The position numbers were made by a program, and so were the translations under genes. From the NCBI GenBank assembly GCA_963664805.2, contig OY761612.1, forward strand, positions 1,288,368 through 1,352,367: a stretch of 64,000 bases of DNA, given 5' to 3'. The stretch is from Pseudomonadales bacterium. Its GTDB lineage: Bacteria > Pseudomonadota > Gammaproteobacteria > Pseudomonadales > Pseudohongiellaceae. How positions within the stretch are numbered: the stretch's first letter is position 1; each line of letters begins with the position of its first letter. The notes under the pieces were generated by a model. That model had not been told where the DNA came from and made no database searches. It was given only the letters and a program-made list of their open reading frames with translations. This document shows positions 30,703-63,892 of this stretch, piece by piece.

Positions 30703-30798
30703 GGAATGACCTCCAAAAAGTCCGGCCGATATTCCCACATTTTCACTGACAATTCATCTGTTGTGGCTTCAATCCATTTAAAGGATTAAGAGGTTCCC

Positions 30799-42298: not shown

Positions 42299-42465
42299 CA
42301 GACAGTCTCCCAGTCCTCGAAAACCACCTTAACAGACTGTCCAAATTTGCCCGACCACTTCTCACGGTAATCGACATGGCCGTACTTGGGGAAACAGAGC
42401 GCGAGTCGGTAGGGATGATGATGCAGCAATTTGGGTAAGAGTGGCCAATTCGAACCGGCGTGATT

Positions 42466-49935: not shown

Positions 49936-51597
49936 CTAGATCTCGTTGCTCCGGGCGAACCGGTCGATATGTTCCGCCGCGCGGAAGGCCAGCGCCATGA
50001 TCGTCATGGTCGGCTGGCCGCGGCTTGAGGTGACCAGGGAACTGCCGTCGCATAGGAACAGGTTGGGCACGTCATGGGAGCGGTGGTGGCGGTCGATGAC
50101 CGAAGTTGCCGGGTCGTCGCCCATGCGGCAGGTGCCGAGCATGTGCGAACTGTTGGTCTGGCCGTCTTCCGGATAGGTCGCGTGGATTTGCAGGGCGCCC
50201 GCCGCTTCCATCATTTCCACCGAACGTTCCATGAAAAAGCGCATGGTCGCGAGATCGTCCGGGTGATCCATATAGGTGCAGCGGATCGCCGGACGGCCCC
50301 ATTTGTCCCGCACTTCCGGGTCCAGCGTGATGTTGTTCGAATCGAGCGGCAAGGACGTGGTATGGCCGTCGAAGGCCGCGGTATGGTTGAATTCCTCCCG
50401 CAGCCGCGCCTTGTATTCGGCGCCCCAGGTCGGCCCGCCCAGCATGCTGCTCGCGAGCGCGGACTCCATCGGCGTGCCGCTGCGCACCGGGTGGCGCCCG
50501 TCGATGCCGCCGCCGCCGTAGAAGCCTTCGGCGGGATCGATTTCGTACCAGTCATGCACGACGCGGGTCGCGGGGATGCTCTTCCAGGCGTTGACGGGTT
50601 CCGGGAACAGTCCGGTCACTTCGCTGTAGCCATTGAACATGAGATTGCGGCCGACGAATCCGCTGCTGTTGGCCAGCCCGTCGGGATGCCGGGGCGATTC
50701 CGACATCAGCAACAGCCGCGGCGTTTCCGCGCCATTGGCGCAAATCACCACGGCGCGGGCGCGCTGGGATTGTTCCGCGCCGTCTTCCCCGAAATAGACA
50801 ACCTCGCTGGCGCGCCCTGATGCATCGGTTTCCACCCGGGAGACCGTGCAATGCGTGCGCAACTCGTAATTGCCCGAAGCGAGCGCGGCGGGAATCATGG
50901 TGATCATCGAAGAGGACTTGGCGTTCACCTCGCAGCCGAAGCCCAGGCAGAAACCGCAATGAATGCAGCCCGGCCTGCCGTTGTGGGGCTGGGACAGGAT
51001 CGCCACCGGCGCCGGATAGGCGGTGCGGCCAAGCGCCCTCGCGCCGCGTTCGAGCAGCACGTCCGAGCCTTTCACCGGCATCGGCGGGCAGGGATAGTCG
51101 CGCGAGCGCGGCGGGTCCCACGGACCTTGCAGGCCGGACACGCCGACTTCCCAGTCCACCCGGGTGTAATAGGGTTCGAGTTCTTCGTAGCGGATCGGCC
51201 AATCGGCGAAATTCGTGCCGGCGATCGTGCCGCGCGCGCTGGCTTCCATGAAATCAATCGGCCGCAAGCGCCAGAAATTGCCGGAAAAATGCAAGCTGCT
51301 GCCGCCGACGTTATGCGCGTAATTGCATACCCTGTCGCGCACGGTCGCGGTCTCGTCCGCGGATTTGCGGAATGTCTGCGGATGCCCCTGGCGGTGGCTC
51401 CAGGTCAGGTCGTGATTGTTGAAGGTGCCCCATTCGTCGTGCCGGAAGTCGGCCGCCTGCAAATGCGGGCCCTGTTCCAGCTGCACGACCGAATGCCCGG
51501 CTTCCGCGAGTTCCTTCGCGACGACGCCGCCCGCCGCGCCGGAACCGACTACGACGAAATCGACTGCTTCCCGGGTCGGGAACGACGCGCCGGCCAT
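49936..51597 (-). CDS. GMC-family FAD oxidoreductase (gluconate 2-dehydrogenase flavoprotein-like)
   Basis: Trimmed to MAGASFPTREAVDFVVVGSGAAGGVVAKELAEAG (GxGxxG). The C-terminus has the GMC signature GTCRMGDDPATSVID. Confidence 0.75.
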   Translation of the reverse strand: MAGASFPTREAVDFVVVGSGAAGGVVAKELAEAGHSVVQLEQGPHLQAADFRHDEWGTFNNHDLTWSHRQGHPQTFRKSADETATVRDRVCNYAHNVGGSSLHFSGNFWRLRPIDFMEASARGTIAGTNFADWPIRYEELEPYYTRVDWEVGVSGLQGPWDPPRSRDYPCPPMPVKGSDVLLERGARALGRTAYPAPVAILSQPHNGRPGCIHCGFCLGFGCEVNAKSSSMITMIPAALASGNYELRTHCTVSRVETDASGRASEVVYFGEDGAEQSQRARAVVICANGAETPRLLLMSESPRHPDGLANSSGFVGRNLMFNGYSEVTGLFPEPVNAWKSIPATRVVHDWYEIDPAEGFYGGGGIDGRHPVRSGTPMESALASSMLGGPTWGAEYKARLREEFNHTAAFDGHTTSLPLDSNNITLDPEVRDKWGRPAIRCTYMDHPDDLATMRFFMERSVEMMEAAGALQIHATYPEDGQTNSSHMLGTCRMGDDPATSVIDRHHRSHDVPNLFLCDGSSLVTSSRGQPTMTIMALAFRAAEHIDRFARSNEI

Positions 51598-51599
51598 GC

Positions 51600-52184
51600 C
51601 TATTGCCCTCCCCTGTTCATATAGTCCTCGTCGTAGAAGCCGAAGGGCGGCTGCCACACGCTGCGCGGCTCGTAGCCGATCAGTTCATTGCCGACGCCGT
51701 CGCGGTTGCCGCCGTATTCCGGCAAGGCGAACATGCCGGCGACGGTGAGATAGCGGATCGTGGCGAAAAAATCGGTGTTTTCGATCTCGCGCAGCAGTTG
51801 GTCCTGTTGTTTGGCGTTCAAGGCGGAGAAACTCGCGGCCTGAAATTCGGCGTTTGCCCGGTTTTGCAATTCCTCCAGGCCGTCGCGCAGGATTTGCAAT
51901 TCCCGTTCACGCTGGTCGCCGAGCACGGCGTCCATGAAATGCACGGCCCCGGCTTCCCGGGCGCCGGGGGTGTTGTCCGGCGGAATGATGCGGTCGGCGA
52001 TGGCTGCGAATTCCTCCGCCTCTTCGCCGCCCAGGAGTTGCAGGCCGATGCCGTCGAGTTGATTTTGCCCGGCGCGGGAGCACGCGGCGAGTATCGCCGG
52101 CATGCTGAGCGCGATCGCCGAACGCGGCAACGCTTCCAGCGTCGATCTCAGCAATGCGCGGCGGGAAAGAATGTGGCGTCGCAT
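51600..52184 (-). CDS. Tat-exported small subunit (gluconate 2-dehydrogenase subunit 3-like)
   Basis: Twin-arginine leader MRRHILSRRALLRSTLE. 194 aa. It ends 2 nt upstream of the GMC gene start. Confidence 0.6.
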   Translation of the reverse strand: MRRHILSRRALLRSTLEALPRSAIALSMPAILAACSRAGQNQLDGIGLQLLGGEEAEEFAAIADRIIPPDNTPGAREAGAVHFMDAVLGDQRERELQILRDGLEELQNRANAEFQAASFSALNAKQQDQLLREIENTDFFATIRYLTVAGMFALPEYGGNRDGVGNELIGYEPRSVWQPPFGFYDEDYMNRGGQ

Positions 52185-52501
52185 TTCCTCAACAGGTCGA
52201 AAACGCCCCGATCGCCCCCGGGCGAATCCGGGCAGACCCCCCTATGTCTACCCGCCGACTATAGCACATCCGCGGCGCATGGCGGCCAAGCCTTTGGCAG
52301 CGTGCTCCGCATCGCCGACGTTTCGCCAAACGCAGGCAGATGGTACGGTTTGGCGGGGGATTCAGGAGGCTGAGCGGGAAGTGAACGAATTCAAATTGGA
52401 TACTTCCGCTCGCCTGGAACGCATCGAACTGTTGCTGCAACTGGTGGTGCGCGGTTCCGACCTTGAATCCCCGGAGAACGTGGCTCCAAACAAACCTCAA
52501 C

Positions 52502-53991
52502 CCTAGGAGTCTGTCGGATTTAGGTTGAGGTAAAATCGTTTTCAGGTTGTTGGAGGGTATTTTACCGATGTCTTCGAAGTTTCGCCTCGTGGACCGGGAC
52601 ACGCTTTATCTTTTGCCGCCGTCGGTGCGGGACCGGCTGCCGGAGGATCATCTGGCGCGTTTTGTGGTGGAGATTGTGGACCGGCTGGACCTGGGCGCGT
52701 TGGAGCGTGCATACGGTGACGGCGGCAAGGATCCGTACCATCCGTCGCTGTTGCTGGGTTTGCTGTTTTACGGGTACGCGACCGGCGTGTTTTCGAGCCG
52801 CAAGCTGGAGCGGGCGACCTACGATTCGGTGGCGTTCCGTTTCGTTGCGGCGAACGCGCATCCGGACCATGACACGATCGCGTCTTTCCGCAAGCGTTTC
52901 CTCGGGGAGTGGCGGGGCTTTTTCGTAGAGATTCGGTTGATCGCGCGGGAGATGGGGCTGTTGCGACTGGGCAATGTGAGCCTGGACGGAACGAAGGTGC
53001 GGGCGAACGCGAGCAGGCGCAAGGCGCTGAGTTGGGGATACGCGAAGCGGCTTGAGGAGCAGTTGCGGGCCGAGGTGTCGGCGTTGCTGGACCGGGCCGA
53101 GGCTGCGGACGACGCGGCGCCCGGGCTGGACGTGCCGAAGGAGTTGAAGCGCCGGGAGGAGCGGCTGGCGGAGATCGGGCGCCGGGCGCGGGAGCGTTGC
53201 GCGGAGGAACAGGAGGAGTACGAGGAGAAGCTCAAGGCGCGGCGGGAAAAGGAGAAGGCGACGGGGCGCAAGCCCCGCGGCCGCGCGCCGAAGGCGCCGG
53301 AGCCGGGGCCGCGGGAGAAGGACCAGGTGAACCTGATGGACGCGGAATCGCGGGCGATGCCGACGGCGGACGGTTTCCAGCAAGCGTACAACGCGCAGTC
53401 GGCGGTGGACGTTGCGAGTTATCTGGTGGTGGCGGCGGACGTGGTGGACCGCTGCAACGACAAGCGGGAGGTCGAGCCGGCGCTGGCGGCGGCGTTGGGG
53501 AAGCCGGAAGCGCTGTTGGCGGACGCGGGTTATTTCAGCGGGGCGAACGTGGAACGTTGCGGGGCGGCGGAGTTGACGCCGCACATCGCCGTGGGCCGCG
53601 AGGCGCACCGCTTGCGGACGCCGGAGGGCCGGAAGCTGTACGCGAAGCGCAAGGCGACGGTGGAAACGGTGTTCGGCGTCATCAAGGAGACGATGGGGTT
53701 CCGGCGTTTCCATTTGCGCGGGCTGGAGGCGGCGCGCGGGGAATGGACGCTGGCCTGTCTGGCGTGGAACCTGAAACGGATGCACGCCTTGCGGTGAGGG
53801 GCGCGGTTGCCGTTTTTCCGCCGGAGGCGGTCATTCCCGACGCTGCCCGCGCCGATTTCGCGCCTGGGCGGCGTGATGCCGGAAGAGCGGCCCGAATCGG
53901 AAAAACCCGCCGCACCTGGCGACGGGCGCGAAAAAATCAGGAAACGCCTTGCCAAGCGATGTCAAAGCCTCAAAACCGACAGACTCCTAGG
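52502..53991 (+). mobile_element. IS1182/IS5-superfamily insertion sequence (~1.49 kb)
   Basis: The terminal inverted repeats are CCTAGGAGTCTGTCGGATTTAGG (left) and CCTAGGAGTCTGTCGGTTTTGAGG (reverse complement of the right end). It holds a single transposase ORF. Confidence 0.7.
52568..53797 (+). CDS. IS1182/IS5-type DDE transposase
   Basis: MSSKFRLVDRDTLYLLPPSVRDRLPEDHLARFVVEIVDRLDL...DPYHPSLLLGLLFYGYATGVFSSRKLERA...SLDGTKVRANAS...LLADAGYFS...VETVFGVIKETMGFRRFHLRGL. Confidence 0.75.
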   Translation: MSSKFRLVDRDTLYLLPPSVRDRLPEDHLARFVVEIVDRLDLGALERAYGDGGKDPYHPSLLLGLLFYGYATGVFSSRKLERATYDSVAFRFVAANAHPDHDTIASFRKRFLGEWRGFFVEIRLIAREMGLLRLGNVSLDGTKVRANASRRKALSWGYAKRLEEQLRAEVSALLDRAEAADDAAPGLDVPKELKRREERLAEIGRRARERCAEEQEEYEEKLKARREKEKATGRKPRGRAPKAPEPGPREKDQVNLMDAESRAMPTADGFQQAYNAQSAVDVASYLVVAADVVDRCNDKREVEPALAAALGKPEALLADAGYFSGANVERCGAAELTPHIAVGREAHRLRTPEGRKLYAKRKATVETVFGVIKETMGFRRFHLRGLEAARGEWTLACLAWNLKRMHALR

Positions 53992-54013
53992 TGTTTATTG
54001 ATGGATCGAATGC

Positions 54014-54035
54014 GGGCGCCGTCCGTGTGGCGCCC
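54014..54035 (-). terminator. Candidate terminator hairpin after the autotransporter gene
   Basis: gggcgcc-gtccgtgt-ggcgccc lies 8 nt beyond the stop. There is no U-tract, so the call is weak. Confidence 0.3.
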
Positions 54036-54043
54036 GCCTTCGG

Positions 54044-57000
54044 TCAGAAGCGGGCCGTATAGTTCAACTCCAGCCGGGGACCGCCTTCGAGGATGGGGGT
54101 GGGCAGTTCGTAGCCGAAGCGCAGCTTCAGGCCCCGGCCCAGCCCGGCGCCCGATTCGCCGGTCGCCGAATCCCAAGAGAAGCCGACGGTTTCCCGCCCG
54201 CCCGGGCCCATGCGGCTGTGCGTTGCGCCCAGCGTCAGCAGGCCCCGGTCGAAGGCGAAACCCCAGCCAAGATCGCTTTCCAGCGTCATGGCGCCAGCAC
54301 CCGCCGCCGCGCCGCGACCCGCCAGGGCGGCGATGTCCGGCCCGCCGAACATCATGCCGCCGCGGGTTCCCGAACCGCCGCCGAGCAGGGTTTCGCTTAC
54401 TCCGCCCCAAGTCGGCGCGAAGGTCAGGCGCGGACCCGAACCGTCGGCGCGGGATTTCACGGTGAGCCGCGCCATGCCGCCGAACTCTTCGTAGTTCTCG
54501 ACCGAATGCGCCGCCAGCCAGCGCGCCTGCGCCTCGAAATCGAACCGGGCGCCGGCATAATGCAGGCCGCCGGTCATTTCCAGCCCGCCGCCGGCCTGAC
54601 CGTCGCCGCCATCGCCGCGCGCGCCGAGGCGCAGGTAGGGCCGCAGCGCCCCGTCGGGACGCGAAACCTCCAGCGACAGACGCGCCTGGGAAATGTTCAC
54701 GTCGAGACCGTCCACGGCGCGCCGGGCTCCGTTGCCATCGGTGCGCAGCGAGACGTAGCCGCCGCTTGCCACCAGCGAGAATTGCACCGCGCCGCGTTGC
54801 GCCAGCGGCTGGCGCAGACCCGCCGCGGCCATGTTCATGTCCAGATCCGCCGTTTCCACCGGTGCGCCCGCGGGGCCGGAAAAATTCTCCGCCCCGCCGC
54901 CGCCGACGCCGCCCAGGGCCCAGAGCTCCAAGCCGGAAGCGGTTTCGCCGCGGATATAGGGCAGCACGCTGGTCAAGGACGTTTCCAGGCCACCTCGGCG
55001 TCCGCCGATGTCGTAGTCGGTCTCGCCGCGGCTGCGCGACACCGCCGCGCCGATCAAGACGCCGTTGCCGAGGCGCGTGTCGGCGCCGAGCCAGAGCGAG
55101 TCCACGCCGCCGTCGTAGGCGCCGGATTCGGAGGCGCCGTCAAAGTGCTGGGAGTCGGCCGCGCCCCACAGCGTCCATCGCGCCGGCGACGGGTTGGCGA
55201 CCGCCTCGGCGCCGGTAGCGGCGTTCAGCGGCAGCGCGAAGGTGCGGTCCGCGAAGGCGTTGTCGAAACCGAGAGCGCCCGCGCCGAAATCGGAACCGGA
55301 TGCCGGGCCGGCGCCGAAATTCGCGCCGGCGCCGGACATCGCGCCCGGGCCGTAGCCACCGGTCGCCGCGGGGGCGCGGCCCGCGCCAAAGCCGAAGCCC
55401 GCGACCGGAAGCGGAGCGCCGACCGAACCGAAATTGCCGCCGGACGCCGCCGCACCGGTTCCGAACGCCCCCCGCGGAGCGGAGAATTGTCCGCCGACCG
55501 GCCCGAAGCCGGGCGTCCCGCCCGCCGCCGGATGTGCGCCGTACCCGCCGCGACCGCCGCCGGCTCCGGCGAGCCAGCCCGCGAAGGCGTTCAGCATCGT
55601 CTCGGCGCGGTCCCGTTCCCCCTCGCCGTCCGCGACTTCCGCCCGCGCAGCGGCGGGTGCCCGGAAGCGCCCGCCGATCACGCCCGTCGCGCTCGTCAGC
55701 AGGGCTCGTCCCTGCGCCGACAGCGCGTCTTCCAGCATCTTCTTCTCGACTTCCGAAATGGATACTTCGATGCTGAAACTCAGGCTCGCGCTGTCCGGGT
55801 CGGCCGCGTCGGAATCGGTCGCCATGTATGTGTAGACCGCGGCGGACGCGGCTTCGACCGGCGTGCCGGACAGCGTCCGCGTCGCCGGGTCGAAAGTCAG
55901 ACCCGCCGGCAGGGCCGGGCTCAGCGAGTAGCGCAGTTCGCCGTCGCCGCTGGACGCGGCGGGCAGCGTCAGCGGGGCCATGGCGAGATTCTGGGTCAGT
56001 TTCAGGTCAGCGACGGTTGCGCCGGCGAAGTCAGGCATGAGGTCCGCGGCCACCGCGAGGCTGAAACCCAGGCTCGCGCTGTCGGGACCGGACGCGTCCG
56101 AATCGGTGGCGGTGTAGGTGTAGACCGCGGCGGGCGCGGCTTCGGTCGGCGCGCCGGCAAGCGTCCGCGTCGCCGGGTCGAAGGTCAGACCCGCCGGCAG
56201 GGCCGGACTCAGCGCGTAGCGCAGTTCGCCATCGCCGCCGGATGCGGCGGGCAGCGTCAGCGGGGCCATGGCGAGATTCTGGGTCAGTTTCAGGTCAGCG
56301 ACGGTTGCGCCGGCGAAGTCAGGCATGAGGTCCGCGGCCACCGCGAGGCTGAAACCCAGGCTCGCGCTGTCGGGACCGGACGCGTCCGAATCGGTGGCGG
56401 TGTAGGTGTAGACCGCGGCGGGCGCGGCTTCGGTCGGCGCGCCGGCAAGCGTCCGCGTCGCCGGGTCGAAGGTCAGACCCGCCGGCAGGGCCGGACTCAG
56501 CGCGTAGCGCAGTTCGCCGTCGCCGCCGCTCGCGGCGGGCAGCACCAGAGGCGCCGCCTCGATGCCTTGGATGTAGTTTTGGTCGGCGATCACCGCGTCC
56601 GCAGCGAAGGCGGGACGCAGGTCGGCGGTGATTTGAACCTCAAGCGCCGCCTCCAATCCTTCGTATTCCCCGCCCGCGGCCCTGTGATTCAGGGCGGCCG
56701 TGTGCGTAGGCGCGTCGGCCGCGGCCGAAACCGTCACGCCGCGTTCGGCGGGCCATTCGTCCGCCGCGAATTGCAGCAGCGCCGGCGAGGCGCTCAGCGC
56801 GGCGTCGGCGCTGGAAAGCGATACCGAAACCGCTTCGGTCGGCGGCGCCGTGAGCCGCAGTGTGTACGTCGCCGAAGCGCCGGCGGCCAGCGAAATGCGC
56901 TCCGGCGAAAACGCCAGGCCGACGGTGTCGTTGTCGACCACGTTCACCGCCAGAACGGCCGACACGCCGTCGTAGCCGCCGCCCGAGGCCGCGTGGCCGA

Positions 57001-60000
57001 TGACGGCGTGCTCGCCAACCCCGTTGGCGTCCTTGGCCACCGTCACCGTCACGGTCGCCGGCTGGTTCCAATTCCCGGTGGTGAAACGCAGTTCGGCGGA
57101 ACCGTCCGCGCCGCCCGCGCCCGTATCCAGCGTCAGGCCGGCGGTGTCGCCCGTCAAGCTCAGCGCCACCGTCACCGGCCCCGCGGGGCGCGTGAACAGC
57201 TTCACGGTGAAGGAGGTCGTGGTGCCTTCCAACAGTTCGGTCGAGTGCAGAGAGAGAACAAGTCCCGGCGTGGCGAAGGCGGCAGTGCCCAGTTCCGTCT
57301 CGCAGTCGCTGGCGCCGTAGGCCACCGCCGTGTAATCCGTTCCCGCCGTCAATCCAGCCAGTTCCATCGTGGCGTCGTTCGCGTTGGGACCCACGCAGGC
57401 GCCGCCGGAAAGCTTGTACCACCATTCGCCGGAGTGTCCTTCGATGGTCAGTTGCGCCGCGGTCGCCGTGACGGCGGTCACGTTCAACTCGGGATCGGAT
57501 GAATCGCCGCCACCGCCGCCGATACCACCGACGCCGGCGGCCAGAGGCGTCACGGCGTCCGATTCCGGCGACTCCGCGCCCGCGCCCACGCTGTTCCAGG
57601 CGCGCAGCTTGAACTGGTGCGCCACGCCGGCGGTCAGGCCGGTGACGGTGTGACTGGTGGTGTTCGGGCCGCTGTTCGGAATGTCGGTCCAGCTCCCGTA
57701 GTCGCCCGTCGTCTTGTAGGCGTACTGCCAGCGGGTCACCGCGGCGCCGCCGTCGCTGCCCAGGGTCCAGGACAGCACGACGCGCTGCGTGTCCGGCTTA
57801 GAGTCGGGCACCGCCGCGTCCGGCTTCGACGGCGCGCCCGGCGCCGTGGTCGGCGTCGCCGCGTCGGAGGCGTCGGAGTCCGCGCCCGTGCCGGTGGCGT
57901 TCACCGCGCGCACCTTGAACTGGTAGGACGTGCCGCCGGTCAGGCCGGTGACGACGTGGTTCAGCGAGGTCGAAGTAACGGAGATGTCGGTCCAAGTGGC
58001 GGTCTCGAAGTCGCCGTTGCCTTCCTTCTTCGCGTACTGCCACTTGCTCAGCGTGCCGTCGCCCCCGACCGAGGCCGCGAGGGTCAGTTCGCCGCTGCCG
58101 GGTCCGGTCGTCGCGGTCGGCTTGCTGGGTTTGCGCGGCTTGGTCAGCAGGGTCTCGGTGGCCAGTTCCGTGTTGCAACCGTTGTCGCTGTAGGCCTTGT
58201 AAGTGTAGTTCGTGTTCGTGGACAGGCCCGTCAAGCGCGCGGCCGTTCCCGTCACGGCGGACGAGCAGGACGCGTGCGGCGCGGCATTGGCCTTATAGTG
58301 CCAGTCGCCGGTGTGGTGGCCGATGGTCAGCGTTGCGGTCGTGGCCTCCACGGCGCTGGCGGTCAGCGTCTCGTCCGCCGGCGTCGCCGCGTCGGAGGCG
58401 TCGGAGTCCGCGCCCGTGCCGGTGACGTTCACCGCCCGCACCTTGAACTGGTAGGACGTGCCGTTGGTGAGGCCGGAGACATCGTGGTTCAGCGAGGTCG
58501 AAGTAACGGAAATGTCGGTCCAGGTGGTCTCGAAGTTGCCGGCGCCCTCCTTCTTGACGTACTGCCACTTGCTCAGCGCGCCGTTGCCCGCGACCGACGC
58601 GGCCAGGGTCAGCGTGCCGCTGCCGGCGCCGGACGTCGCTTCCGGCTTGGCCGGCTGGCCCGGCAGGGTGAGCGCTTCGGCGGTGTCGGTCCAGGTTCCC
58701 CAGCCGCCATAGCCGCCGTTCCACTTGCCGGCGCGGACCTCCACCTCGTAGATGGTGTTGTCCTTCATCGTAAACGATTCGTGGGCGGGGATGGTGGCGC
58801 TGGTCGCGCTCCCGGCGAAATTCTGCTCGCCGCTGTTCGAATTGGCGTCGGCGTAGGTCCAGGTGTCCTGGCCCTTCTCCCGGTAGCGGATACGGTACGC
58901 CCCGAGGCCGCTCACCCCGGCCGGATGGCTCCAGCTCAGGCTGATTCGCCGCGCGTTCGCGCTCGCGTCCGGCGCCGACAGCGTGGGCGCGGCCAACGAC
59001 AGCGTTGCGCTGGTGGTGAAGGCCACGTCCGCGACCTTGTCATTGGCATCGCAATCGGCCACGCCGTACACCGCCCAAGTGTAGTCCGAGTTCGGCGTCA
59101 GGTCGGCGAGGTTCGCCGTGTGCGTGCCCTGGTTAACCTTCGTGCAGGTATGCGAGCCGGTACCGGAGGTCTTGTTGTGCCACCAGTCCGCCGTCCAGTT
59201 GGCGAGGTTCAGCGTCGCCGTGGTCTGCGCCAGATCGCTCGCGGTCAACCCCACCGTGGAGAACTCCGCGTCGGTCGCGTCGGTCGTCAATTCGGTGGTG
59301 CAGCCGCTGTCGCTATAGGCCTTGTAGGCGTATTCGGTGCCGCCCATCAGGCTGGACAGGCTCGCCGTCGCGGTGCTGGCCGCGACCGCGGTGCAGGCGG
59401 CCCCGTCCTGGTCGCCCTGGTACCACCAGGCCGCGGTGTGGTTGCCGATGGTCAGCGTCGCCGTGGTCTGTGTGACGTCGCTCGCGGTCAGGGTCGCGGC
59501 CCGCGGCGTCGCGGTCAGCTCGGTCGACCAGTCCCCGTCGCCGTTCGCGTTGGTTGCCGCTACCCGGACGGTGTACGTGGTGTCGTTGGTCAGGGACGAG
59601 ATGTCCGAGGATGTGGAGGAGCCGCCCGAGATCGTGTTCTGCCGCGCGGAGCCGTACTCCTCGTTGCCGGACTTCCACTGCACCTTGTAGCCCGTGGCGC
59701 CGGTCTTCGCGTCCCACGAGACCCCGATGCGCGCGTTCCGCGCCTCGAGCGCGACGTTGGCGGGCGGCCCGAGTCTGGTCGTGAACGCCGCCGCGGTCGC
59801 GAGCAGCGTCGAGCAGCCGCTGTCGCTGTAGGCCTTGTAGGTGTAGCTGGTGTTCGTGGACAGGTCCGTCAGACTGGCCGTCGGGCCGGTCTGCGCGGAT
59901 GAGCAGGTGCCGCCCATGGGCGACGTGTGCTTGTAGTACCAGTCGCCGGTGTGGCTGGAGATGGTCAGGGTCGCCGTGGTGGCGGTGATGGCGCTGCCGG

Positions 60001-62986
60001 CGAGGTCCTTCGTGGTGAACGCCGCGGCCGTCGCGACCGTGTTGGTGCAGTTGCTGTCGCTGTAGGCGGCGAAGGTGTAGGCCGTGCCGCCGGTCAGCGT
60101 GGTCAGGCCGGCCGTCGTGCCGGTCTGCTCGGATGAGCAGGTGCCGCCCGTGGGCGACGTGTACTTGTAGTACCAACTGCCCGTGTGGTTGCCGATGGTG
60201 AGCGTCGCCGTGGTCTGTGTGACCGCGCTCGCCGTCAGCGTCTCGTCCGCCGGCGTCGCCGCGTCGGAGGCGTCGGAGTCCGCGCCCGTGCCGGTGGCGT
60301 TCACCGCCCGCACCTTGAACTGGTAGGATGTGCCGTCGGTCAGGCCGTCGACGACGTGGTTCAGCGAGGTCGAAGTAACGGAAATGTCGGTCCAGGTGGT
60401 CTCGAAGTTGCCGGCGCCCTCCTTCTTGACGTACTGCCACTTGCTCAGCGCGCCGTTGCCCGCGACCGACGCGGCCAGGGTCAGCGTGCCGCTGCCGGCG
60501 CCGGACGTCGCTTCCGGCTTGGCCGGCTGGCCCGGCAGGGTGAGCGCTTCGGCGGTGTCGGTCCAGGTTCCCCAGCCGCCATAGCCGCCGTTCCACTTGC
60601 CGGCGCGGACCTCCACCTCGTAGATGGTGTTGTCCTTCATCGTAAACGATTCGTGGGCGGGGATGGTGGCGCTGGTCGCGCTCCCGGCGAAATTCTGCTC
60701 GCCGCTGTTCGAATTGGCGTCGGCGTAGGTCCAGGTGTCCTGGCCCTTCTCCCGGTAGCGGATACGGTACGCCCCGAGGCCGCTCACGCTGGCCGGATGG
60801 CTCCAGCTCAGGCTGATTCGCCGCGCGTTCGCGCTCGCGTCCGGCGCCGACAGCGTGGGCGCGGCCAGCGGCAGCGCCGGGGTGCTGAAGTCCACGTCCG
60901 CGACCTCGTTCGTGTCGGCGCAGCCGCTCGCGCTATAGACCGTCCAGGTGTAGTCTGAGTTCGGCGTCAGGTCGGCCAGGTCCGCGGTCGTGGTGTTGGC
61001 GGCCACGGAGGCGCAGGTTCCGGCCGGGGTCGCGGGCGCCGTCTTCTTGTGCCACCAGGCCGTGGTCCAGTTGGACAGGGTCAGCGTCGCCCCGGTCTGC
61101 GTCACCGAGGTCGCGGTCAGGCCCACGGTGGAGAAGGCCGCCGCCGTCGCGAGCAGGTTCGTGGCGTTGCAGCCGGTCGCGCTGTAGGCCTTGTAGGTGT
61201 ATTCGGCGCCGCCGGTCAGGCCGGACAGGCTCGCCGTCGCGGTGCTGGCCGCGACCGCGGTGCAGGCGGCCCCGTCCTGGTCGCCCTGGTACCACCAGGC
61301 CGCGGTGTGGTTGCCGATGGTCAGCGTGGCGGTGGTTTCCTTGACGCCGCTGGCCGCGAGCGACACCGTCGAGGTGCTGAAGTCCACGTCCGCGATCTTG
61401 TCCGCGGCGTTGCAGTTCGCCGCGCTGTACACCGTCCAGGTGTAGTCCGACGCCGTCGTCAGGCCCGACAGGGCGGCCGTCCTGGTGTTGGCGGCGACCG
61501 ACGTGCAGGACGCGGCGCCGGGCCCGGTGGTCTTGTTGTGCCACCACGCCGAGGGCCAGAACGCGAGGGTCAGCGTCGCCCCGGTTGACGTCGGGTTCGC
61601 GGTCAGGCCCACCGTCGAGAAAAACGTGGCGGCGAGATCCGTCATGCAGTTGCTGTCGCTGTATGCCTGCCAGCTGTATTGGACCCCGCCGGTCAGGTTG
61701 GTCAGGTTGGCGGTGGTCCCGGTCTGGGCCGAGGAGCAGGTCCCGCCGGTCGGATCCACCTGTTTGTGGTACCAGTTGCCCGGCCAAGTGCCGCCGAGGG
61801 TGAGCGTCGCCGTGGTTTCCGTGATCGCGCTCACGTCCAGCGACGCGTCGCTCAGGGTGGTGAAGGCCACGTCCGCGATCTTGTCCGCGGCGTTGCAGTT
61901 CGCCGCGCTGTACACCGTGTAGATGTGGTTCGTCAGCGCGTCCAAGCTGCTCAGGTTAGCCGTCGCGGTGTTGGTCGCGACCGATTCGCACAGCGCTCCG
62001 CTCTGGTCCCCCTTGTACCACCACGCATTGGTCCAGTTCGCCAGGGTCAGCGTCGCCCCGGACGCCGTCACCGAGCCGGCGGTCAGTCCGACGGTGGAAA
62101 ACTCCGCGTCGGTCGAGGCGGTGGTGATTTCGGTGGCGCAGCCGCTGTCGCTGTACGCCTTGTAGGTGTAGTTCGTGCCGCCCGTCAGCCCGGTCAGGTT
62201 CGCCGTCGCGGTGCTGGCCGCGACCGACGTGCAGGCGGCGTTTGTCTGGTTCCCCTGGTACCACCACGCCGCCGTGTGACCGGAGAGCGTCAGCGTCGCC
62301 TTGGTTTCCTTGACGTTGCTGGCGGCCAGCGTCGCCGTGGCGGTGGTGAAGGTGGTTTCGACGTCCCAGTGGGCGGCCTTGTCCGAGTCTTCCGTACAGG
62401 TGTCGCGGTAGTAGACGTTGTAGGTGTAGGAGACGCCGGGGTTGAGGCCGGTGAGGGTGACCGCGCTGGTGCCGTTGGGCACTGCGGTGCATGTCGCGCC
62501 GGCCTGCTCGCCCTTGTACCACCACTGGGCCGGCAGGTTGTCCACCGTCAGGGTTGCGCTCGTCATCTTGACGTTGCCGGCGGTGACGGTCGGCAACGCC
62601 GCCCGCGCCGTCGTGGTGTGGGACCAGGGGCCGAAGACGCCGCCGCCGGAGACCGTGTGGCCGCGGACCTTCAGGGTGTAATTGTAACCCCGCCTCAGGG
62701 TCGTCGGGCTCCTCATAAACCTGGCTTCCGTGGTGGATCCGGAGTACCCGGTCTGGGTGAGTTGCTCGTCGGCGGTGCGGATTTCGTAGTAGTTGGGCGC
62801 GCCGTTGGCGGGATGCGTCCATTTGACGAGGAAGTAGGCGCCGAAATTGCCGGTTCCGGAGATGAAAGGGATCATTTCCGGCTTGCCGGGCTGCGCGAAG
62901 GCGGCGGGAGCGCAGAGCAGGAGGATTAGCGCGGCGGAGAAAGAAATGCGCCGCCGCGTATGTGACCTTCTGGATTGTCGTTCCAT
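54044..62986 (-). CDS. Giant (2,980-aa) type Va autotransporter-like adhesin: FN3 and FN3-like Cys-pair modules, He_PIG-like Ig domains, a Gly-rich linker and a C-terminal beta-barrel
   Basis: Trimmed to MERQSRRSHTRRRISFSAALILLLCAPAAFAQ. It has about 13 modules of the pattern T.ATLT(I/L)..(H/W)T..WW(Y/H)(K/Q)...C....T(A/T).L..L....(Y)T(Y/W).(A/V)YS...C, and several classical FN3 domains (RISLSWSHP...YRIRYREKG; LSKWQYVKKEG...YQFKVRAVN). It also has three 96-aa He_PIG-like repeats (LP..SGGDGELRYALSPALPAGLTFDPATRTLAG). The C-terminal barrel ends in ...RLELNYTARF. Confidence 0.8.
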   Translation of the reverse strand: MERQSRRSHTRRRISFSAALILLLCAPAAFAQPGKPEMIPFISGTGNFGAYFLVKWTHPANGAPNYYEIRTADEQLTQTGYSGSTTEARFMRSPTTLRRGYNYTLKVRGHTVSGGGVFGPWSHTTTARAALPTVTAGNVKMTSATLTVDNLPAQWWYKGEQAGATCTAVPNGTSAVTLTGLNPGVSYTYNVYYRDTCTEDSDKAAHWDVETTFTTATATLAASNVKETKATLTLSGHTAAWWYQGNQTNAACTSVAASTATANLTGLTGGTNYTYKAYSDSGCATEITTASTDAEFSTVGLTAGSVTASGATLTLANWTNAWWYKGDQSGALCESVATNTATANLSSLDALTNHIYTVYSAANCNAADKIADVAFTTLSDASLDVSAITETTATLTLGGTWPGNWYHKQVDPTGGTCSSAQTGTTANLTNLTGGVQYSWQAYSDSNCMTDLAATFFSTVGLTANPTSTGATLTLAFWPSAWWHNKTTGPGAASCTSVAANTRTAALSGLTTASDYTWTVYSAANCNAADKIADVDFSTSTVSLAASGVKETTATLTIGNHTAAWWYQGDQDGAACTAVAASTATASLSGLTGGAEYTYKAYSATGCNATNLLATAAAFSTVGLTATSVTQTGATLTLSNWTTAWWHKKTAPATPAGTCASVAANTTTADLADLTPNSDYTWTVYSASGCADTNEVADVDFSTPALPLAAPTLSAPDASANARRISLSWSHPASVSGLGAYRIRYREKGQDTWTYADANSNSGEQNFAGSATSATIPAHESFTMKDNTIYEVEVRAGKWNGGYGGWGTWTDTAEALTLPGQPAKPEATSGAGSGTLTLAASVAGNGALSKWQYVKKEGAGNFETTWTDISVTSTSLNHVVDGLTDGTSYQFKVRAVNATGTGADSDASDAATPADETLTASAVTQTTATLTIGNHTGSWYYKYTSPTGGTCSSEQTGTTAGLTTLTGGTAYTFAAYSDSNCTNTVATAAAFTTKDLAGSAITATTATLTISSHTGDWYYKHTSPMGGTCSSAQTGPTASLTDLSTNTSYTYKAYSDSGCSTLLATAAAFTTRLGPPANVALEARNARIGVSWDAKTGATGYKVQWKSGNEEYGSARQNTISGGSSTSSDISSLTNDTTYTVRVAATNANGDGDWSTELTATPRAATLTASDVTQTTATLTIGNHTAAWWYQGDQDGAACTAVAASTATASLSSLMGGTEYAYKAYSDSGCTTELTTDATDAEFSTVGLTASDLAQTTATLNLANWTADWWHNKTSGTGSHTCTKVNQGTHTANLADLTPNSDYTWAVYGVADCDANDKVADVAFTTSATLSLAAPTLSAPDASANARRISLSWSHPAGVSGLGAYRIRYREKGQDTWTYADANSNSGEQNFAGSATSATIPAHESFTMKDNTIYEVEVRAGKWNGGYGGWGTWTDTAEALTLPGQPAKPEATSGAGSGTLTLAASVAGNGALSKWQYVKKEGAGNFETTWTDISVTSTSLNHDVSGLTNGTSYQFKVRAVNVTGTGADSDASDAATPADETLTASAVEATTATLTIGHHTGDWHYKANAAPHASCSSAVTGTAARLTGLSTNTNYTYKAYSDNGCNTELATETLLTKPRKPSKPTATTGPGSGELTLAASVGGDGTLSKWQYAKKEGNGDFETATWTDISVTSTSLNHVVTGLTGGTSYQFKVRAVNATGTGADSDASDAATPTTAPGAPSKPDAAVPDSKPDTQRVVLSWTLGSDGGAAVTRWQYAYKTTGDYGSWTDIPNSGPNTTSHTVTGLTAGVAHQFKLRAWNSVGAGAESPESDAVTPLAAGVGGIGGGGGDSSDPELNVTAVTATAAQLTIEGHSGEWWYKLSGGACVGPNANDATMELAGLTAGTDYTAVAYGASDCETELGTAAFATPGLVLSLHSTELLEGTTTSFTVKLFTRPAGPVTVALSLTGDTAGLTLDTGAGGADGSAELRFTTGNWNQPATVTVTVAKDANGVGEHAVIGHAASGGGYDGVSAVLAVNVVDNDTVGLAFSPERISLAAGASATYTLRLTAPPTEAVSVSLSSADAALSASPALLQFAADEWPAERGVTVSAAADAPTHTAALNHRAAGGEYEGLEAALEVQITADLRPAFAADAVIADQNYIQGIEAAPLVLPAASGGDGELRYALSPALPAGLTFDPATRTLAGAPTEAAPAAVYTYTATDSDASGPDSASLGFSLAVAADLMPDFAGATVADLKLTQNLAMAPLTLPAASGGDGELRYALSPALPAGLTFDPATRTLAGAPTEAAPAAVYTYTATDSDASGPDSASLGFSLAVAADLMPDFAGATVADLKLTQNLAMAPLTLPAASSGDGELRYSLSPALPAGLTFDPATRTLSGTPVEAASAAVYTYMATDSDAADPDSASLSFSIEVSISEVEKKMLEDALSAQGRALLTSATGVIGGRFRAPAAARAEVADGEGERDRAETMLNAFAGWLAGAGGGRGGYGAHPAAGGTPGFGPVGGQFSAPRGAFGTGAAASGGNFGSVGAPLPVAGFGFGAGRAPAATGGYGPGAMSGAGANFGAGPASGSDFGAGALGFDNAFADRTFALPLNAATGAEAVANPSPARWTLWGAADSQHFDGASESGAYDGGVDSLWLGADTRLGNGVLIGAAVSRSRGETDYDIGGRRGGLETSLTSVLPYIRGETASGLELWALGGVGGGGAENFSGPAGAPVETADLDMNMAAAGLRQPLAQRGAVQFSLVASGGYVSLRTDGNGARRAVDGLDVNISQARLSLEVSRPDGALRPYLRLGARGDGGDGQAGGGLEMTGGLHYAGARFDFEAQARWLAAHSVENYEEFGGMARLTVKSRADGSGPRLTFAPTWGGVSETLLGGGSGTRGGMMFGGPDIAALAGRGAAAGAGAMTLESDLGWGFAFDRGLLTLGATHSRMGPGGRETVGFSWDSATGESGAGLGRGLKLRFGYELPTPILEGGPRLELNYTARF
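55750..56620 (-). repeat. Three tandem 288-bp (96-codon) repeats inside the autotransporter gene
   Basis: The offset between equivalent positions is 288 bp (for example, catgagg at 56036 and 56324). Units 2 and 3 are almost identical over about 210 bp. Boundaries are approximate. Confidence 0.8.
58362..58995 (-). repeat. Near-identical ~634-bp internal repeat, copy 1
   Basis: It matches 60234-60867 at a constant offset of 1872 bp, with only scattered mismatches. It encodes ...LAAPTLSAPDASANARRISLSW...AATPADETLTASAV. Confidence 0.85.
60234..60867 (-). repeat. Near-identical ~634-bp internal repeat, copy 2
   Basis: See copy 1. A further ~112-bp near-identical stretch follows at 61223-61334, matching 59354-59465 at an offset of 1869 bp. 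Confidence 0.85.
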
Positions 62987-63035
62987 CACTTCAAGTCCCG
63001 ATTCGATCGTCAAGTTTTGTTTTTTTAGTGTGTGT

Positions 63036-63054
63036 GGGGGGGGGGGGGGGGGGG
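63036..63054. repeat. G19 homopolymer (C19 on the coding strand), preceded by (GT)4 and located 50-68 nt upstream of the autotransporter start codon
   Basis: The sequence reads ...ttttttagtgtgtgtGGGGGGGGGGGGGGGGGGGcagtgc.... It is followed by a very AT-rich 250-bp upstream region. Confidence 0.9.
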
Positions 63055-63463
63055 CAGTGCTCGTATCGCACGGACCGAGCGCGAATCGGAATCTATGTTT
63101 TTCGAAGTCATCATTGGATTCCTTGTTCCACTTGCGACTTGGCGGATCCAATTTCCGCACCAAAACGTGGCGCATTTTACTAATAACTCATAAATTTACA
63201 ACTTTAATCACATTTAATTCACTTTATGAAAGATGTACGCATAGAATATCCACTTTTATTCATAATAATTCCAGACCCAGACTCGGCCCCGCGACCAGGA
63301 AATCGCTCGTCTCACAAGCCCGGGAGTTCCGATTCATCCGCCTCGGCGCGCTTTCGTTCCCGCAATTGCCGATTCGTCGCATGGCTGTTGCCAAGGTCGA
63401 ACCGGCGGGGCTAGATTGGCCCCGCATTCCCGAAATCAATCAAACTTGCGAAGGAGCACGAAC

Positions 63464-63892
63464 ATGAAAACGGCCAAACTCATCAGCGCATGCCTGCTCG
63501 CCGTTTTGCTCGGCGTCTATACCCAAGTCTCGGCCGAGACTTTGACCATCGTCATCGAGGACATCCGCGAAGCAAGCGGCGCCCTGCAGGTGCAGGTGCT
63601 CGCCGGGCAGGCGCAATTCGAAGGCGAAGGCGCGGTGGCGCAATTCATCGAGCCGGCGGCGGAAGGATCGGTTACCTTGACGGCGGAAAACCTGCCGCCG
63701 GGGGAATACGCCATCAGAATCATGCACGACGTGAACGGCAACGACGAACTCGACGCCAACTTCGTCGGCGCGCCCACCGAGCCTTACGCCTTCTCCAACA
63801 ACGCCAAGGGGATGTTCGGACCGGCCAAGTGGGAAGACGCGCGCTTCACGCTCGAAGGCGATGTCACCCAGGTGATCAGCCTGATCCACTAG
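63464..63892 (+). CDS. DUF2141-domain exported protein
   Basis: AAGGAG lies 7 nt upstream of ATG 63464. Signal MKTAKLISACLLAVLLGVYTQVSA. The core is IRIMHDVNGNDELDANFVGAPTEPYAFSNNAKGMFGPAKWEDARF. Confidence 0.6.
   Translation: MKTAKLISACLLAVLLGVYTQVSAETLTIVIEDIREASGALQVQVLAGQAQFEGEGAVAQFIEPAAEGSVTLTAENLPPGEYAIRIMHDVNGNDELDANFVGAPTEPYAFSNNAKGMFGPAKWEDARFTLEGDVTQVISLIH

What the first reader, a model, noticed from the sequence alone, without database searches (positions are those of the whole stretch)
63028..63054. G19 homopolymer plus (GT)4 just upstream of the giant autotransporter: candidate phase-variation switch
A run of 19 G (C19 on the coding strand) lies 50-68 nt upstream of the ATG (62986) that precedes the signal peptide. 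It is flanked by (GT)4 and a T/A run, and it sits below a very AT-rich 250-bp region. Long homopolymers in or next to promoters of surface adhesins are the classical substrate for slipped-strand mispairing. Known examples are the Bordetella fim promoters and the Neisseria opc and porA promoters.

The reading frame also stays open through the tract, as APPPPPPH, up to an ATG at 63175. A length change could therefore also switch an N-terminally extended isoform on or off.
Basis: partly seen in the sequence, partly recalled or inferred. Interest (0 to 1): 0.7.

Follow-up and report, generated by a model that had tools for sequence, protein, structure and literature searches.

The report
Slippery poly-C switch on adhesin gene
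A run of 19 G (19 C on the gene's strand) sits at the start of a giant surface-adhesin gene, and because relatives of this gene carry the same kind of run at the same place it is most likely a real, mutation-prone on/off switch of a classical type, found here in uncultured environmental bacteria.

Summary
G19 lies at 63036-63054, flanked by (GT)4 and T7, 50-68 nt upstream of ATG 62986. It is the only homopolymer longer than 7 nt in the 64 kb.

The gene is a real type Va autotransporter, shown by a borderline Pfam hit and clear structural matches.

The tract is not an artefact:
- Synteny with a related contig spans both flanks.
- Nine homologous 5' ends from another metagenome carry poly-C tracts of 11-39 nt at the same place.
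- The sequence flanking those tracts is unconserved.

This supports a slipped-strand contingency switch, although no read-level length variation could be tested.

The promoter-spacer analogy (fim, opc, porA) is not supported, because every sigma-70-like candidate lies upstream of the tract. Instead, six of nine loci, the window included, have a Shine-Dalgarno site plus ATG reading into the tract (p = 2e-5). In two relatives the tract clearly encodes poly-proline inside the signal peptide.

In the window that start (ATG 63114) is in frame only at C17, C20 or C23. The assembled C19 is therefore one base out of frame, meaning either "OFF" or a length error.

Closest analogues are the AutA/AutB and NalP/MspA autotransporters. 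This is a new member of a known kind.

The parts
63036..63054 (-). Homopolymer: C19 on the coding strand (G19 on +). Proposed slipped-strand switch.
   Evidence: It is the only homopolymer longer than 7 nt in the window. Equivalent tracts occur in relatives.
63028..63035 (-). (AC)4 on the coding strand ((GT)4 on +), directly 3' of the tract. It is read as H-T-(L/H) depending on frame.
   Evidence: Not conserved in relatives.
63025..63027 (-). TAA stop codon that ends the ORF starting at ATG 63114 when the tract is C19 (also C16 or C22).
   Evidence: peptide ...AIRALPPPPPPHTH*.
63109..63114 (-). ATG ATG, candidate true translation start. It encodes MMTSKNIDSDSRSVRAIRAL and then runs into the tract.
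   Evidence: open frame into the tract. (in frame with the autotransporter at C17/C20/C23).
63120..63124 (-). Shine-Dalgarno-like AAGGA, 5 nt and 8 nt upstream of the two ATGs.
   Evidence: The same arrangement (SD + ATG + short basic peptide + tract) occurs in L002b, L003, L004, L013 and L014.
63174..63201 (-). Best sigma-70-like promoter, TTGTAA-16-TAAAAT. The inferred transcription start is near 63167, about 53 nt upstream of ATG 63114.
   Evidence: This is a consensus match only.
63150..63300 (.). AT-rich upstream region (G+C 0.29-0.41) that contains the promoter-like sites.
62894..62986 (-). Classical signal peptide MERQSRRSHTRRRISFSAALILLLCAPAAFA. Its ATG 62986 is an alternative or internal start with only a weak SD (GGGA, 9 nt upstream).
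   Evidence: Cleavage before QPGKPEMIPF is inferred from alignment with relatives.
54044..62986 (-). Giant autotransporter gene (2980 aa counted from ATG 62986). It holds the N-terminal PGKPE-IPF module, many WW[YH]K Cys-pair Ig-like repeats, fn3 x7, He_PIG x3, a linker and a beta-barrel.
54047..55210 (-). C-terminal translocator (beta-barrel) domain ending in ...NYTARF.
   Evidence: PF03797 at E = 2.6e-5, 24.6 bits against a cut-off of 26. AlphaFold2 model with pLDDT 70.5, all-beta. Foldseek top hits are EstA, Hbp, EspP, AIDA-I, BrkA and NalP beta-domains.
52502..53991 (+). IS1182-family insertion sequence with 20-nt terminal inverted repeats, 52 nt downstream of the autotransporter stop codon.
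   Evidence: (repeat pair I21).
52170..63352 (.). 11.2-kb segment (IS + autotransporter gene + tract + AT-rich region) that is absent between the same two flanking genes in a related contig.
   Evidence: L001 1-616 matches window 51554-52169, and L001 722-1244 matches window 63353-63884.

Best explanation
The G19/C19 tract is a real hypermutable homopolymer belonging to the 5' end of a giant type Va autotransporter (adhesin-like) gene. Slipped-strand mispairing during replication is expected to add or remove single C:G pairs at high frequency. This step is inferred from established knowledge of such tracts.

The tract most probably lies inside the transcribed and translated 5' part of the gene, not in the promoter. 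The proposed order of events is:
1. A promoter in the AT-rich region (about 63174-63201) drives transcription.
2. A Shine-Dalgarno site (AAGGA, 63120-63124) and ATG-ATG (63114/63111) start translation of a short basic peptide, MMTSKNIDSDSRSVRAIRAL.
3. The tract is read as poly-proline.
4. Sixteen further codons lead into the classical signal peptide and the passenger domain.

Only C17, C20 or C23 join this start to the gene. At C19, as assembled, the ribosome stops at TAA right after the tract. At C18 or C21 it stops at a TGA 7 nt before ATG 62986.

Tract length would therefore switch production of the adhesin between ON and OFF, or to a low level if the weak internal start ATG 62986 is used. 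This would create mixed populations, for example for attachment versus detachment, or for escape from phage or grazers.

The steps differ in how well they are supported:
- Shown: the tract, its conservation across the gene family, the SD-ATG architecture, the frame arithmetic and the autotransporter identity.
- Inferred: that the length actually varies, which start codon is used, and what the phenotype is.
For: (1) The tract is unique in the window: 19 nt against a maximum of 7 elsewhere.

(2) It is not a chimeric join. The two genes that are adjacent in related contig L001 flank the 11.2-kb segment holding the tract, in the same order and orientation.

(3) The tract is conserved across the gene family. 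The loci and tracts are L002 C26 and C39 (plus G14), L003 C14, L004 C15, L005 C13, L006 C11 (plus C10), L013 C27 and L014 C15. All sit at the 5' ends of homologous or neighbouring giant surface-protein genes. No other homopolymer of 10 nt or more occurs in 196 kb of loci plus the 64-kb window.

(4) The flanks of the tracts are not alignable, except between L004 and L006. Selection therefore acts on the tract itself.

(5) An SD + ATG with an open frame into the tract lies within 68 nt upstream in 6 of 9 loci, against 0.083 expected per locus (binomial p = 2e-5).

(6) In L013 and L014 the tract is clearly intragenic. The layout is SD, ATG, 7 or 11 codons, then C27 or C15, in frame with the h-region. 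There is no ATG between the tract and the h-region.

(7) In five loci with a measurable gap, the signal-peptide frame is open from the tract to the signal peptide in 5 of 5, against 3 of 10 control frames (Fisher p about 0.02, my arithmetic).

(8) All sigma-70-like promoter candidates lie upstream of the tract.

(9) Of the six SD-led starts, three are in frame and three are off by one, as expected for a switching locus.

(10) There is precedent for repeats inside the DNA encoding an autotransporter signal sequence: AutA/AutB (PMC5118866) and NalP/MspA (PMC3723659).
Against: No reads were available, so length heterogeneity at this locus is unproven.

All comparator loci come from one indel-prone long-read assembly, ERZ21830300, in which genes are broken by frameshifts. 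Their tract lengths and frames are therefore approximate.

The window has a Met (ATG 62986) at the start of a complete classical signal peptide. This Met is conserved in one sub-clade (L005, P0080, P0089), and in L005 the tract looks untranslated. An OFF frame upstream may therefore not silence the gene.

G+C at third codon positions is lower in the proposed leader than in the gene body. It is 0.55 before the tract (hand count) and 0.47 after it, against 0.90 in the gene.

The resulting signal peptide of about 74 residues would be unusually long, and no ESPR (extended signal peptide region) motif was detected.

Tracts of 19-39 nt would also cause RNA polymerase slippage, which would blur a strict ON/OFF switch (my own knowledge).

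One homologous giant autotransporter that lacks the N-terminal module (L007) has no tract.
Confidence: 0.55

Rival explanations
1. A transcriptional or 5'-UTR 'volume control'. Translation starts only at ATG 62986. The tract lies 50-68 nt upstream in the promoter or untranslated leader. Its length changes transcript level, as for the Bordetella fim C-stretch or the M. catarrhalis uspA1 G(n) tract.
For: ATG 62986 opens a complete classical signal peptide.

The equivalent Met is conserved in L005, P0080 and P0089. In L005 a TGGTCA-17-TAGTAT promoter-like site ends 1 nt before the tract, and a GAGG SD precedes the downstream ATG.

A tract 21-80 nt upstream of a start codon is the class judged most likely to overlap a promoter in Bordetella, where fim tracts reach C19 (PMC1891110).

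The uspA1 G(n) tract upstream of its ORF changes mRNA about 20-fold (PMC7302503).

Third-position G+C is low around the tract.
Against: No -10 hexamer with A2/T6 lies downstream of the tract, and no promoter candidate straddles it, in any locus.

The SD in front of ATG 62986 is weak (GGGA, 9 nt away), whereas AAGGA precedes ATG 63114.

The enrichment of SD + ATG upstream of tracts (p = 2e-5) and the intragenic tracts in L013 and L014 are not explained by this model.
Confidence: 0.25
2. A fixed-function leader element whose role does not depend on length change. Two versions are possible. The C-rich, G-free leader RNA (C19 + ACACACAC + UAAAAAAACAAAAC) could act as a Rho loading site that attenuates transcription of the 9-kb gene. 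Or the short poly-proline leader ORF could act as an EF-P-dependent stalling peptide that controls downstream initiation.
For: In the predicted fold of the leader the tract is unpaired, and the leader is not more structured than shuffled sequences (z = +1.16).

A 43-nt stretch without G follows the start of the tract.

The tract is C on the coding strand in all family members that carry the N-terminal module.

The leader ORF encodes poly-Pro in every frame.

Poly(C) is the classical best activator of Rho (my own knowledge).
Against: In L013 and L014 the tract is simply part of the main ORF.

In L002a the tract is followed by G-rich sequence.

One neighbouring gene has G14, not C, on its coding strand.

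A perfect homopolymer is not needed for either function, yet the tracts are uninterrupted, which points to selection for mutability.
Confidence: 0.1
3. A sequencing or assembly artefact, for example a two-colour-chemistry poly-G read tail that joined two unrelated contigs, or an inflated homopolymer.
For: Poly-G is the typical no-signal artefact of two-colour Illumina chemistry (my own knowledge). The exact length of 19 cannot be verified without reads.
Against: Both flanks belong to one genome. The Gluconate_2-dh3 and DUF2141 genes that are adjacent in L001 bracket the segment.

The tract sits exactly between a coherent upstream region and the start of the gene.

Nine homologous 5' ends in an independent long-read assembly have a tract at the same place, and no tracts occur elsewhere in those loci.
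Confidence: 0.03

Closest known systems
[quoted passage not shown]
   Same: In both, a simple repeat sits just downstream of the start codon, inside the signal-sequence coding region of a type Va autotransporter. Frame changes switch the protein ON or OFF, and many alleles are found out of frame. Long repeat insertions in the signal sequence are tolerated, up to 40 units in autA (PMC5118866).
   Different: Here the repeat is a mononucleotide C tract encoding poly-proline, not a tetranucleotide. The window also has an internal Met at the start of the classical signal peptide. The hosts are uncultured, apparently environmental bacteria, and no expression data exist.
Neisseria NalP and MspA, Campylobacter CapA, Bordetella BapC and TcfA (homopolymeric G/C tracts inside autotransporter ORFs)
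   Same: A homopolymeric G/C tract lies in the coding sequence of an autotransporter and gives ON/OFF phase variation by slipped-strand mispairing (PMC3723659, PMC7168839 and PMC1891110).
   Different: To my knowledge those tracts are typically about 7-14 nt. Here they are 11-39 nt, and 19 in the window. The position inside an extended signal peptide is conserved across a whole new gene family.
Bordetella fim2/fim3/fimX promoter C-stretch
   Same: Both are long poly-C tracts (up to C19 in B. bronchiseptica fim3) upstream of a surface-structure gene in a high-G+C proteobacterium. The distance to the start codon falls in the 21-80 nt class (PMC1891110).
   Different: The fim tract lies between an activator site and the -10 box. 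Here no -10 follows the tract, and the promoter-like sites are 119-146 nt upstream. A start codon with an SD lies upstream of the tract.
Moraxella catarrhalis uspA1 G(n) tract
   Same: A homopolymer upstream of the annotated ORF of an autotransporter adhesin gives graded high or low expression (PMC7302503).
   Different: UspA1 is a trimeric (type Vc) autotransporter, and its tract of 8-12 G acts on mRNA level. Here translation through the tract is the better-supported reading.

Membership tests
SSR-mediated phase-variable (contingency) locus | A perfect simple-sequence repeat far longer than chance allows | tested here: met
   G19 against a maximum of 7 nt elsewhere in 64 kb. About 2e-5 such tracts are expected per window.
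SSR-mediated phase-variable (contingency) locus | The repeat is placed so that a one-unit change alters expression (inside the 5' coding region or the promoter) | tested here: met
   In-silico variants C15-C24 move the SD-led ORF from ATG 63114 between fusion with the gene (C17/20/23) and two different stops. The same architecture occurs in 6 of 9 loci.
SSR-mediated phase-variable (contingency) locus | Tract length is polymorphic among cells, strains or reads at the same locus | not testable with these tools
   No reads and no second copy of this locus were found. Homologous, not orthologous, loci differ: 11, 13, 14, 15, 15, 19, 26, 27 and 39 nt. Half of the SD-led frames are off by one. This is only indirect evidence, and the comparator assembly is indel-prone.
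SSR-mediated phase-variable (contingency) locus | Reversible, heritable switching of the gene product | not testable with these tools
   This needs cultures or reporter constructs.
Type Va (classical) autotransporter | C-terminal beta-barrel translocator domain (PF03797) | tested here: met
   Pfam gives 24.6 bits against a cut-off of 26, at E = 2.6e-5, which is borderline. Three of eight aligned family members (the window's C-terminus included) match PF03797 at E up to 0.01; the best reaches 1.4e-9. The AlphaFold2 model is all-beta. The top 16 Foldseek PDB hits are autotransporter beta-domains, with E down to 3.9e-9 and TM-score up to 0.77 on the target. Sequence-only PDB searches found nothing.
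Type Va (classical) autotransporter | N-terminal Sec signal peptide and a C-terminal aromatic residue | tested here: met
   By inspection: MERQSRRSHTRRRISFSAALILLLCAPAAFA|QPGKPE and a terminal ...NYTARF. No dedicated signal-peptide predictor was available.
Bordetella fim-type promoter C-stretch | The tract lies between an activator-binding site and a -10 box and sets their spacing | tested here: not met
   No -10-like hexamer with A2/T6 occurs within the 50 nt downstream of the tract. All candidates, at 8 or more matches of 12, lie upstream. An activator site cannot be tested.
SSR inside the signal-sequence coding region (AutA/AutB, Opa type) | A start codon with a ribosome-binding site upstream of the repeat, with the h-region and cleavage site downstream in the same frame at permissive repeat numbers | tested here: met
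   Window: AAGGA-N5-ATG ATG, then 20 codons, then the tract, in frame at C17/20/23. This arrangement is clear in L013 and L014. Actual use of this start is not shown.
Extended signal peptide region (ESPR, PF13018) autotransporters | A conserved N-terminal ESPR motif | tested here: not met
   No PF13018 match, even at E up to 10, for the six reconstructed N-termini.

The most novel reading that the evidence does not exclude
The unusually long tracts (13-39 C), conserved in the leaders of a whole family of giant autotransporters in free-living bacteria, may be more than a binary frame switch. At these lengths three processes could act together:
- RNA-polymerase slippage.
- EF-P-dependent translation of 6-13 consecutive prolines.
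- Rho loading on an unstructured poly-C leader.

Together they would make tract length a graded, physiology-sensitive rheostat for a 9-kb transcript, combining genetic and RNA-level control.
Probability: 0.12. Interest if true: 0.7.

Novelty: new member of a known kind. Interest (0 to 1): 0.45.

Why it matters
Contingency loci are known almost entirely from host-adapted pathogens such as Neisseria, Haemophilus, Campylobacter, Bordetella and Moraxella.

Here the same logic appears in a previously undescribed family of giant autotransporters. This family was found only in metagenomes. There were no relatives among 185,579 representative genomes, but 894 representative proteins in the 1.84-billion-protein library (one representative per 50%-identity cluster of about 15 billion proteins) match the N-terminal profile. 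One tract-bearing locus lies next to a carboxysome/RuBisCO operon, and the window's locus lies on an IS-associated 11-kb insertion.

If length variation is confirmed, three things follow:
- Bet-hedging of surface adhesins by homopolymer slippage would be shown to be common in environmental communities.
- Metagenome annotators would gain a practical rule: a poly-C run at the 5' end means the start codon may lie upstream, and the gene may be phase-OFF rather than a pseudogene.
- A family would be available in which very long tracts can be studied.

Tried and rejected
Searches for the same locus elsewhere, to compare tract alleles, found none:
- The exact-product look-up of the neighbouring DUF2141 gene was not on record.
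- An exact-flank pattern with a variable gap found nothing in genome contigs.
- The metagenome scan returned only a 79%-identical relative that lacks the whole segment.
- A genome-contig scan with an N-terminal-domain profile found nothing.
- One gene present in three samples (L010-L012) could have given allele comparisons, but it is a distant autotransporter without any tract.

Other negative results:
- Rfam: no family at gathering score in the leader, and only chance-level hits at E up to 1.
- RNA structure: the leader is not structured and the tract is unpaired, so a riboswitch or SD-sequestering hairpin was dropped.
- ESPR motif: none.
- A sigma-54 site (TGGTGCG-N4-TTGG at about 63146-63161) was considered and rejected by eye, because the conserved -12 GC is missing.
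- A conserved -10-like hexamer directly 5' of the tract (TGTAAT, TACTAT, TAGTAT in L002a, L004, L005, L006) was considered as a promoter with transcription starting inside the tract. Two of the four lack the essential A2, and the window has nothing similar, so it was kept only for L005.
- Regulation of the divergent DUF2141 gene by the tract was rejected. That gene has its own promoter-like site (63388-63417), conserved in L001, which lacks the tract.

Pfam and NCBIfam on the whole protein or on the last 518 aa missed the beta-domain. Only the trimmed 388-aa query and the structure search found it.

Taxonomy could not be fixed. The IS transposase is at most 56% identical to proteobacterial IS1182 elements.

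Full report
OBSERVATION. The sequence is as described. G19 occupies 63036-63054 on the + strand. It is preceded by T7 (63020-63026), A and (GT)4 (63028-63035), and followed by CAGTG. On the coding (-) strand this reads ...GCACTG-C19-ACACACAC-TAAAAAAACAAAAC..., and the ATG at 62986 follows 49 nt after the tract. A census of the window shows that the next-longest homopolymers are 7 nt, and that no other G or C run exceeds 6 nt. At 61% G+C a 19-mer is expected about 2e-5 times per window. The 150-250 bp upstream (about 63100-63300) fall to 29-41% G+C. The giant ORF's frame is indeed open through the tract to ATG 63175.

THE GENE. From ATG 62986 the ORF encodes 2980 aa. It holds a classical signal peptide, an N-terminal module beginning QPGKPEMIPF, about 20 copies of an unannotated WW[YH]K domain of about 80 aa with a Cys pair, seven fn3 domains and three He_PIG domains. 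Whole-protein Pfam and NCBIfam searches, and a 518-aa C-terminal query, gave no autotransporter hit. A trimmed 388-aa C-terminus matches PF03797 at E = 2.6e-5 (24.6 bits, cut-off 26), and homologues match better. An AlphaFold2 model (pLDDT 70.5) is an all-beta meander. Its 16 best PDB matches are autotransporter beta-domains, including EstA, Hbp, EspP, AIDA-I, BrkA and NalP, with E down to 3.9e-9. The 'giant autotransporter' label is therefore justified.

NOT AN ARTEFACT, AND PART OF AN INSERTED SEGMENT. A related metagenome contig (L001) carries the window's Gluconate_2-dh3 gene and DUF2141 gene about 105 nt apart. In the window the same two genes, at 87% and 78% nucleotide identity, are separated by 11.2 kb (52170-63352). 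This segment holds four things: an IS1182-family element with 20-nt inverted repeats (52502-53991), the autotransporter gene, the tract and the AT-rich region. Because both sides of the tract are anchored in one syntenic genome context, the poly-G is not a chimeric join. The DUF2141 gene keeps its own promoter-like site (63388-63417), which is conserved in L001, so the tract does not belong to that gene.

THE KEY COMPARATIVE RESULT. Homologues of the N-terminal module were found only in metagenomes. None was found among 185,579 representative genomes. An exhaustive profile search finds 894 representative proteins, many of 2000-5900 aa. Every retrievable locus whose gene carries this module has a poly-C tract on the coding strand at its 5' end:
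- L002: C26
- L003: C14
- L004: C15
- L005: C13
- L006: C11, plus a C10 123 nt upstream
- L013: C27
- L014: C15

In L002 the next two giant surface-protein genes in the array are preceded by C39 and G14. In 196 kb of fetched loci plus the 64-kb window there is no other homopolymer of 10 nt or more. The DNA flanking the tracts cannot be aligned between loci, apart from the close pair L004/L006. The tract itself is therefore the conserved feature. A homologous giant autotransporter without the module (L007) and more distant ones (L010-L012) have no tract. This pattern is the signature of contingency loci: a perfect repeat maintained at one position of a surface-protein gene family, with different lengths and unconserved flanks. 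One caveat applies. All comparators come from a single long-read assembly (ERZ21830300) whose genes are visibly broken by frameshifts. Their tract lengths are therefore approximate, and they are paralogues or homologues from different organisms (G+C 59-69%), not alleles.

WHERE THE TRACT ACTS. Strict and relaxed sigma-70 scans place every candidate upstream of the tract:
- Window: TTGTAA-16-TAAAAT, with the -10 ending 119 nt upstream.
- L002a: 55 nt upstream.
- L003: 152 nt upstream.
- L013: about 280 nt upstream of the tract.
- L005: abutting the tract.

No candidate straddles or follows a tract. In contrast, a Shine-Dalgarno motif plus ATG, with an open frame running into the tract, lies within 68 nt upstream in 6 of 9 loci. 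The expectation from the density of such sites across all the sequences is 0.083 per locus (binomial p = 2e-5).

In L013 the layout is AAGGGAGAG-N4-ATG, seven codons (MSEKHGRL), C27 (nine prolines), then directly the hydrophobic core and cleavage site. No ATG lies between the tract and the hydrophobic core. L014 comes from a circular 4.56-Mb contig. There the layout is GAGGAG, ATG, eleven codons, C15, then the signal peptide. In these relatives the tract is therefore translated as poly-proline inside an extended signal peptide. In five loci with a measurable gap, the signal-peptide frame is open between tract and signal peptide in 5 of 5. The corresponding figure for control frames is 3 of 10 (Fisher p about 0.02).

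THE WINDOW UNDER THIS MODEL. The window has AAGGA (63124-63120), five nucleotides, then ATG ATG (63114/63111). These encode MMTSKNIDSDSRSVRAIRAL up to the tract, a short basic peptide like those of the relatives. The predicted promoter would start transcription near 63167, about 53 nt upstream of this start. It would also exclude ATG 63175, which overlaps the -10 and has no SD. In-silico variants show that the SD-led ORF joins the autotransporter frame only at C17, C20 or C23. At the assembled C19 it ends HTH-stop at TAA 63027-63025. At C18 or C21 it ends at a TGA 7 nt before ATG 62986. The contig consensus is thus one base away from ON. That is either a genuine OFF variant or a one-base length error, and the two cannot be told apart without reads. 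Among the six SD-led loci, three are in frame and three are off by one.

RESERVATIONS.
- ATG 62986 begins a complete classical signal peptide. The equivalent Met is conserved in a sub-clade (L005, P0080, P0089), where the tract appears to be in the 5' UTR.
- In the window, therefore, a transcript-level or coupling effect on initiation at 62986 cannot be excluded, and OFF may mean 'low'.
- Third-position G+C in the proposed leader (about 0.5-0.55) is well below that of the gene body (0.90).
- No ESPR motif was found.
- The leader RNA is unstructured and the tract is unpaired.
- No Rfam family matches.

COMPARISON WITH KNOWN SYSTEMS. The best functional match is the meningococcal AutA/AutB pair. 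[quoted passage not shown] Homopolymeric G/C tracts inside autotransporter ORFs are known for NalP and MspA (PMC3723659), for Campylobacter autotransporter genes (PMC7168839), and for Bordetella bapC and tcfA (PMC1891110). The Bordetella fim C-stretch, up to C19, and the uspA1 G(n) tract are the promoter or leader analogues (PMC1891110, PMC7302503). The defining fim feature, a tract between an activator site and the -10, was tested and not met here. The finding differs from these precedents in four ways: tract length (11-39 nt), its conservation across a new family of giant autotransporters, the apparently environmental hosts, and the location of the window's copy on an IS-associated insertion.

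VERDICT. A slipped-strand switch is the best explanation, at about 0.8 for the general claim. The most likely mechanism is translational, inside an extended signal peptide (0.55), rather than promoter spacing (0.25). The finding is a new member of a known kind and of moderate interest.

Noticed in passing
window 52170-63352 (compare L001 617-721): The autotransporter gene, its tract and AT-rich upstream region, and an IS element together form an 11.2-kb insertion. It lies between a Gluconate_2-dh3 gene and a DUF2141 gene that are adjacent in a related metagenome contig. The adhesin locus therefore looks horizontally acquired or mobile.
   Followed up: partly
window 52502-53991: A complete IS1182-family insertion sequence. 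Its transposase is at 52547-53797 on the + strand, with 20-nt terminal inverted repeats CCTAGGAGTCTGTCGGATTT / AAAACCGACAGACTCCTAGG. It lies 52 nt downstream of the autotransporter stop codon. The closest plasmid-borne relatives are only 46-56% identical (Pseudomonas, Methylobacter, Polaromonas, Aromatoleum).
   Followed up: partly
window 57800-62600 (inside the giant gene): The passenger domain is built from about 20 copies of a domain of about 80 aa (..TATLTI.NHT..WWYKG....C......T..L..L...T.YTYKAYSD..C..) that no Pfam model covers. There is also a recent internal duplication of about 1.87 kb: 58350-58649 and 60222-60521 are 96% identical. The three 288-nt He_PIG repeats at 55768-56631 are 75-92% identical. 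These repeats are a substrate for recombinational size or antigenic variation.
   Followed up: no
L002 9808-9833, 15507-15545, 18848-18861: On a 1.7-Mb contig, three consecutive giant surface-protein genes are each preceded by their own long homopolymer (C26, C39, G14). This would allow independent, combinatorial switching. The third tract is G, not C, on the coding strand.
   Followed up: partly
L004 9380-9556 and L006 5700-5829: The 170 nt upstream of the tracts in these two loci are homologous (CATTGACYCC ... GCAGAGGGRRTTGATGGTTGGGTG ...). In L006 a second C10 tract sits where L004 has an interrupted CCCGTCCCGGC. This may be a conserved regulatory region carrying a decayed second tract.
   Followed up: no
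L005 1-5700: One tract-bearing autotransporter gene lies directly next to an alpha-carboxysome/RuBisCO operon (CsoS2, CsoSCA, RuBisCO large and small subunits, BMC shell proteins). At least some hosts of this gene family are therefore chemolithoautotrophs rather than host-associated bacteria.
   Followed up: no
window 41167-42542: An IS3-like transposase (rve integrase core) gene at 41167-42183 lies beside the only tRNA gene in the window, tRNA-Arg(TCG) at 42466-42542. This could be a second mobile-element insertion site.
   Followed up: no
P0069, P0071; L003, L004: Gene callers start several family members inside the hydrophobic core of the signal peptide (MLAGALLPSS..., MLAGLTLAGLTTQANA...), or split them. 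The apparent cause is that the poly-C tract puts the true start out of frame. This is a systematic annotation error for this family.
   Followed up: partly
window 17662-19452 and 28675-30738: Two PQQ-dependent dehydrogenase genes lie elsewhere in the window, together with GMC oxidoreductase and gluconate 2-dehydrogenase subunit 3 genes (49936-52184) and a class C-type beta-lactamase-fold gene (36719-38065). This is ordinary metabolic context, with no link to the tract.
   Followed up: no
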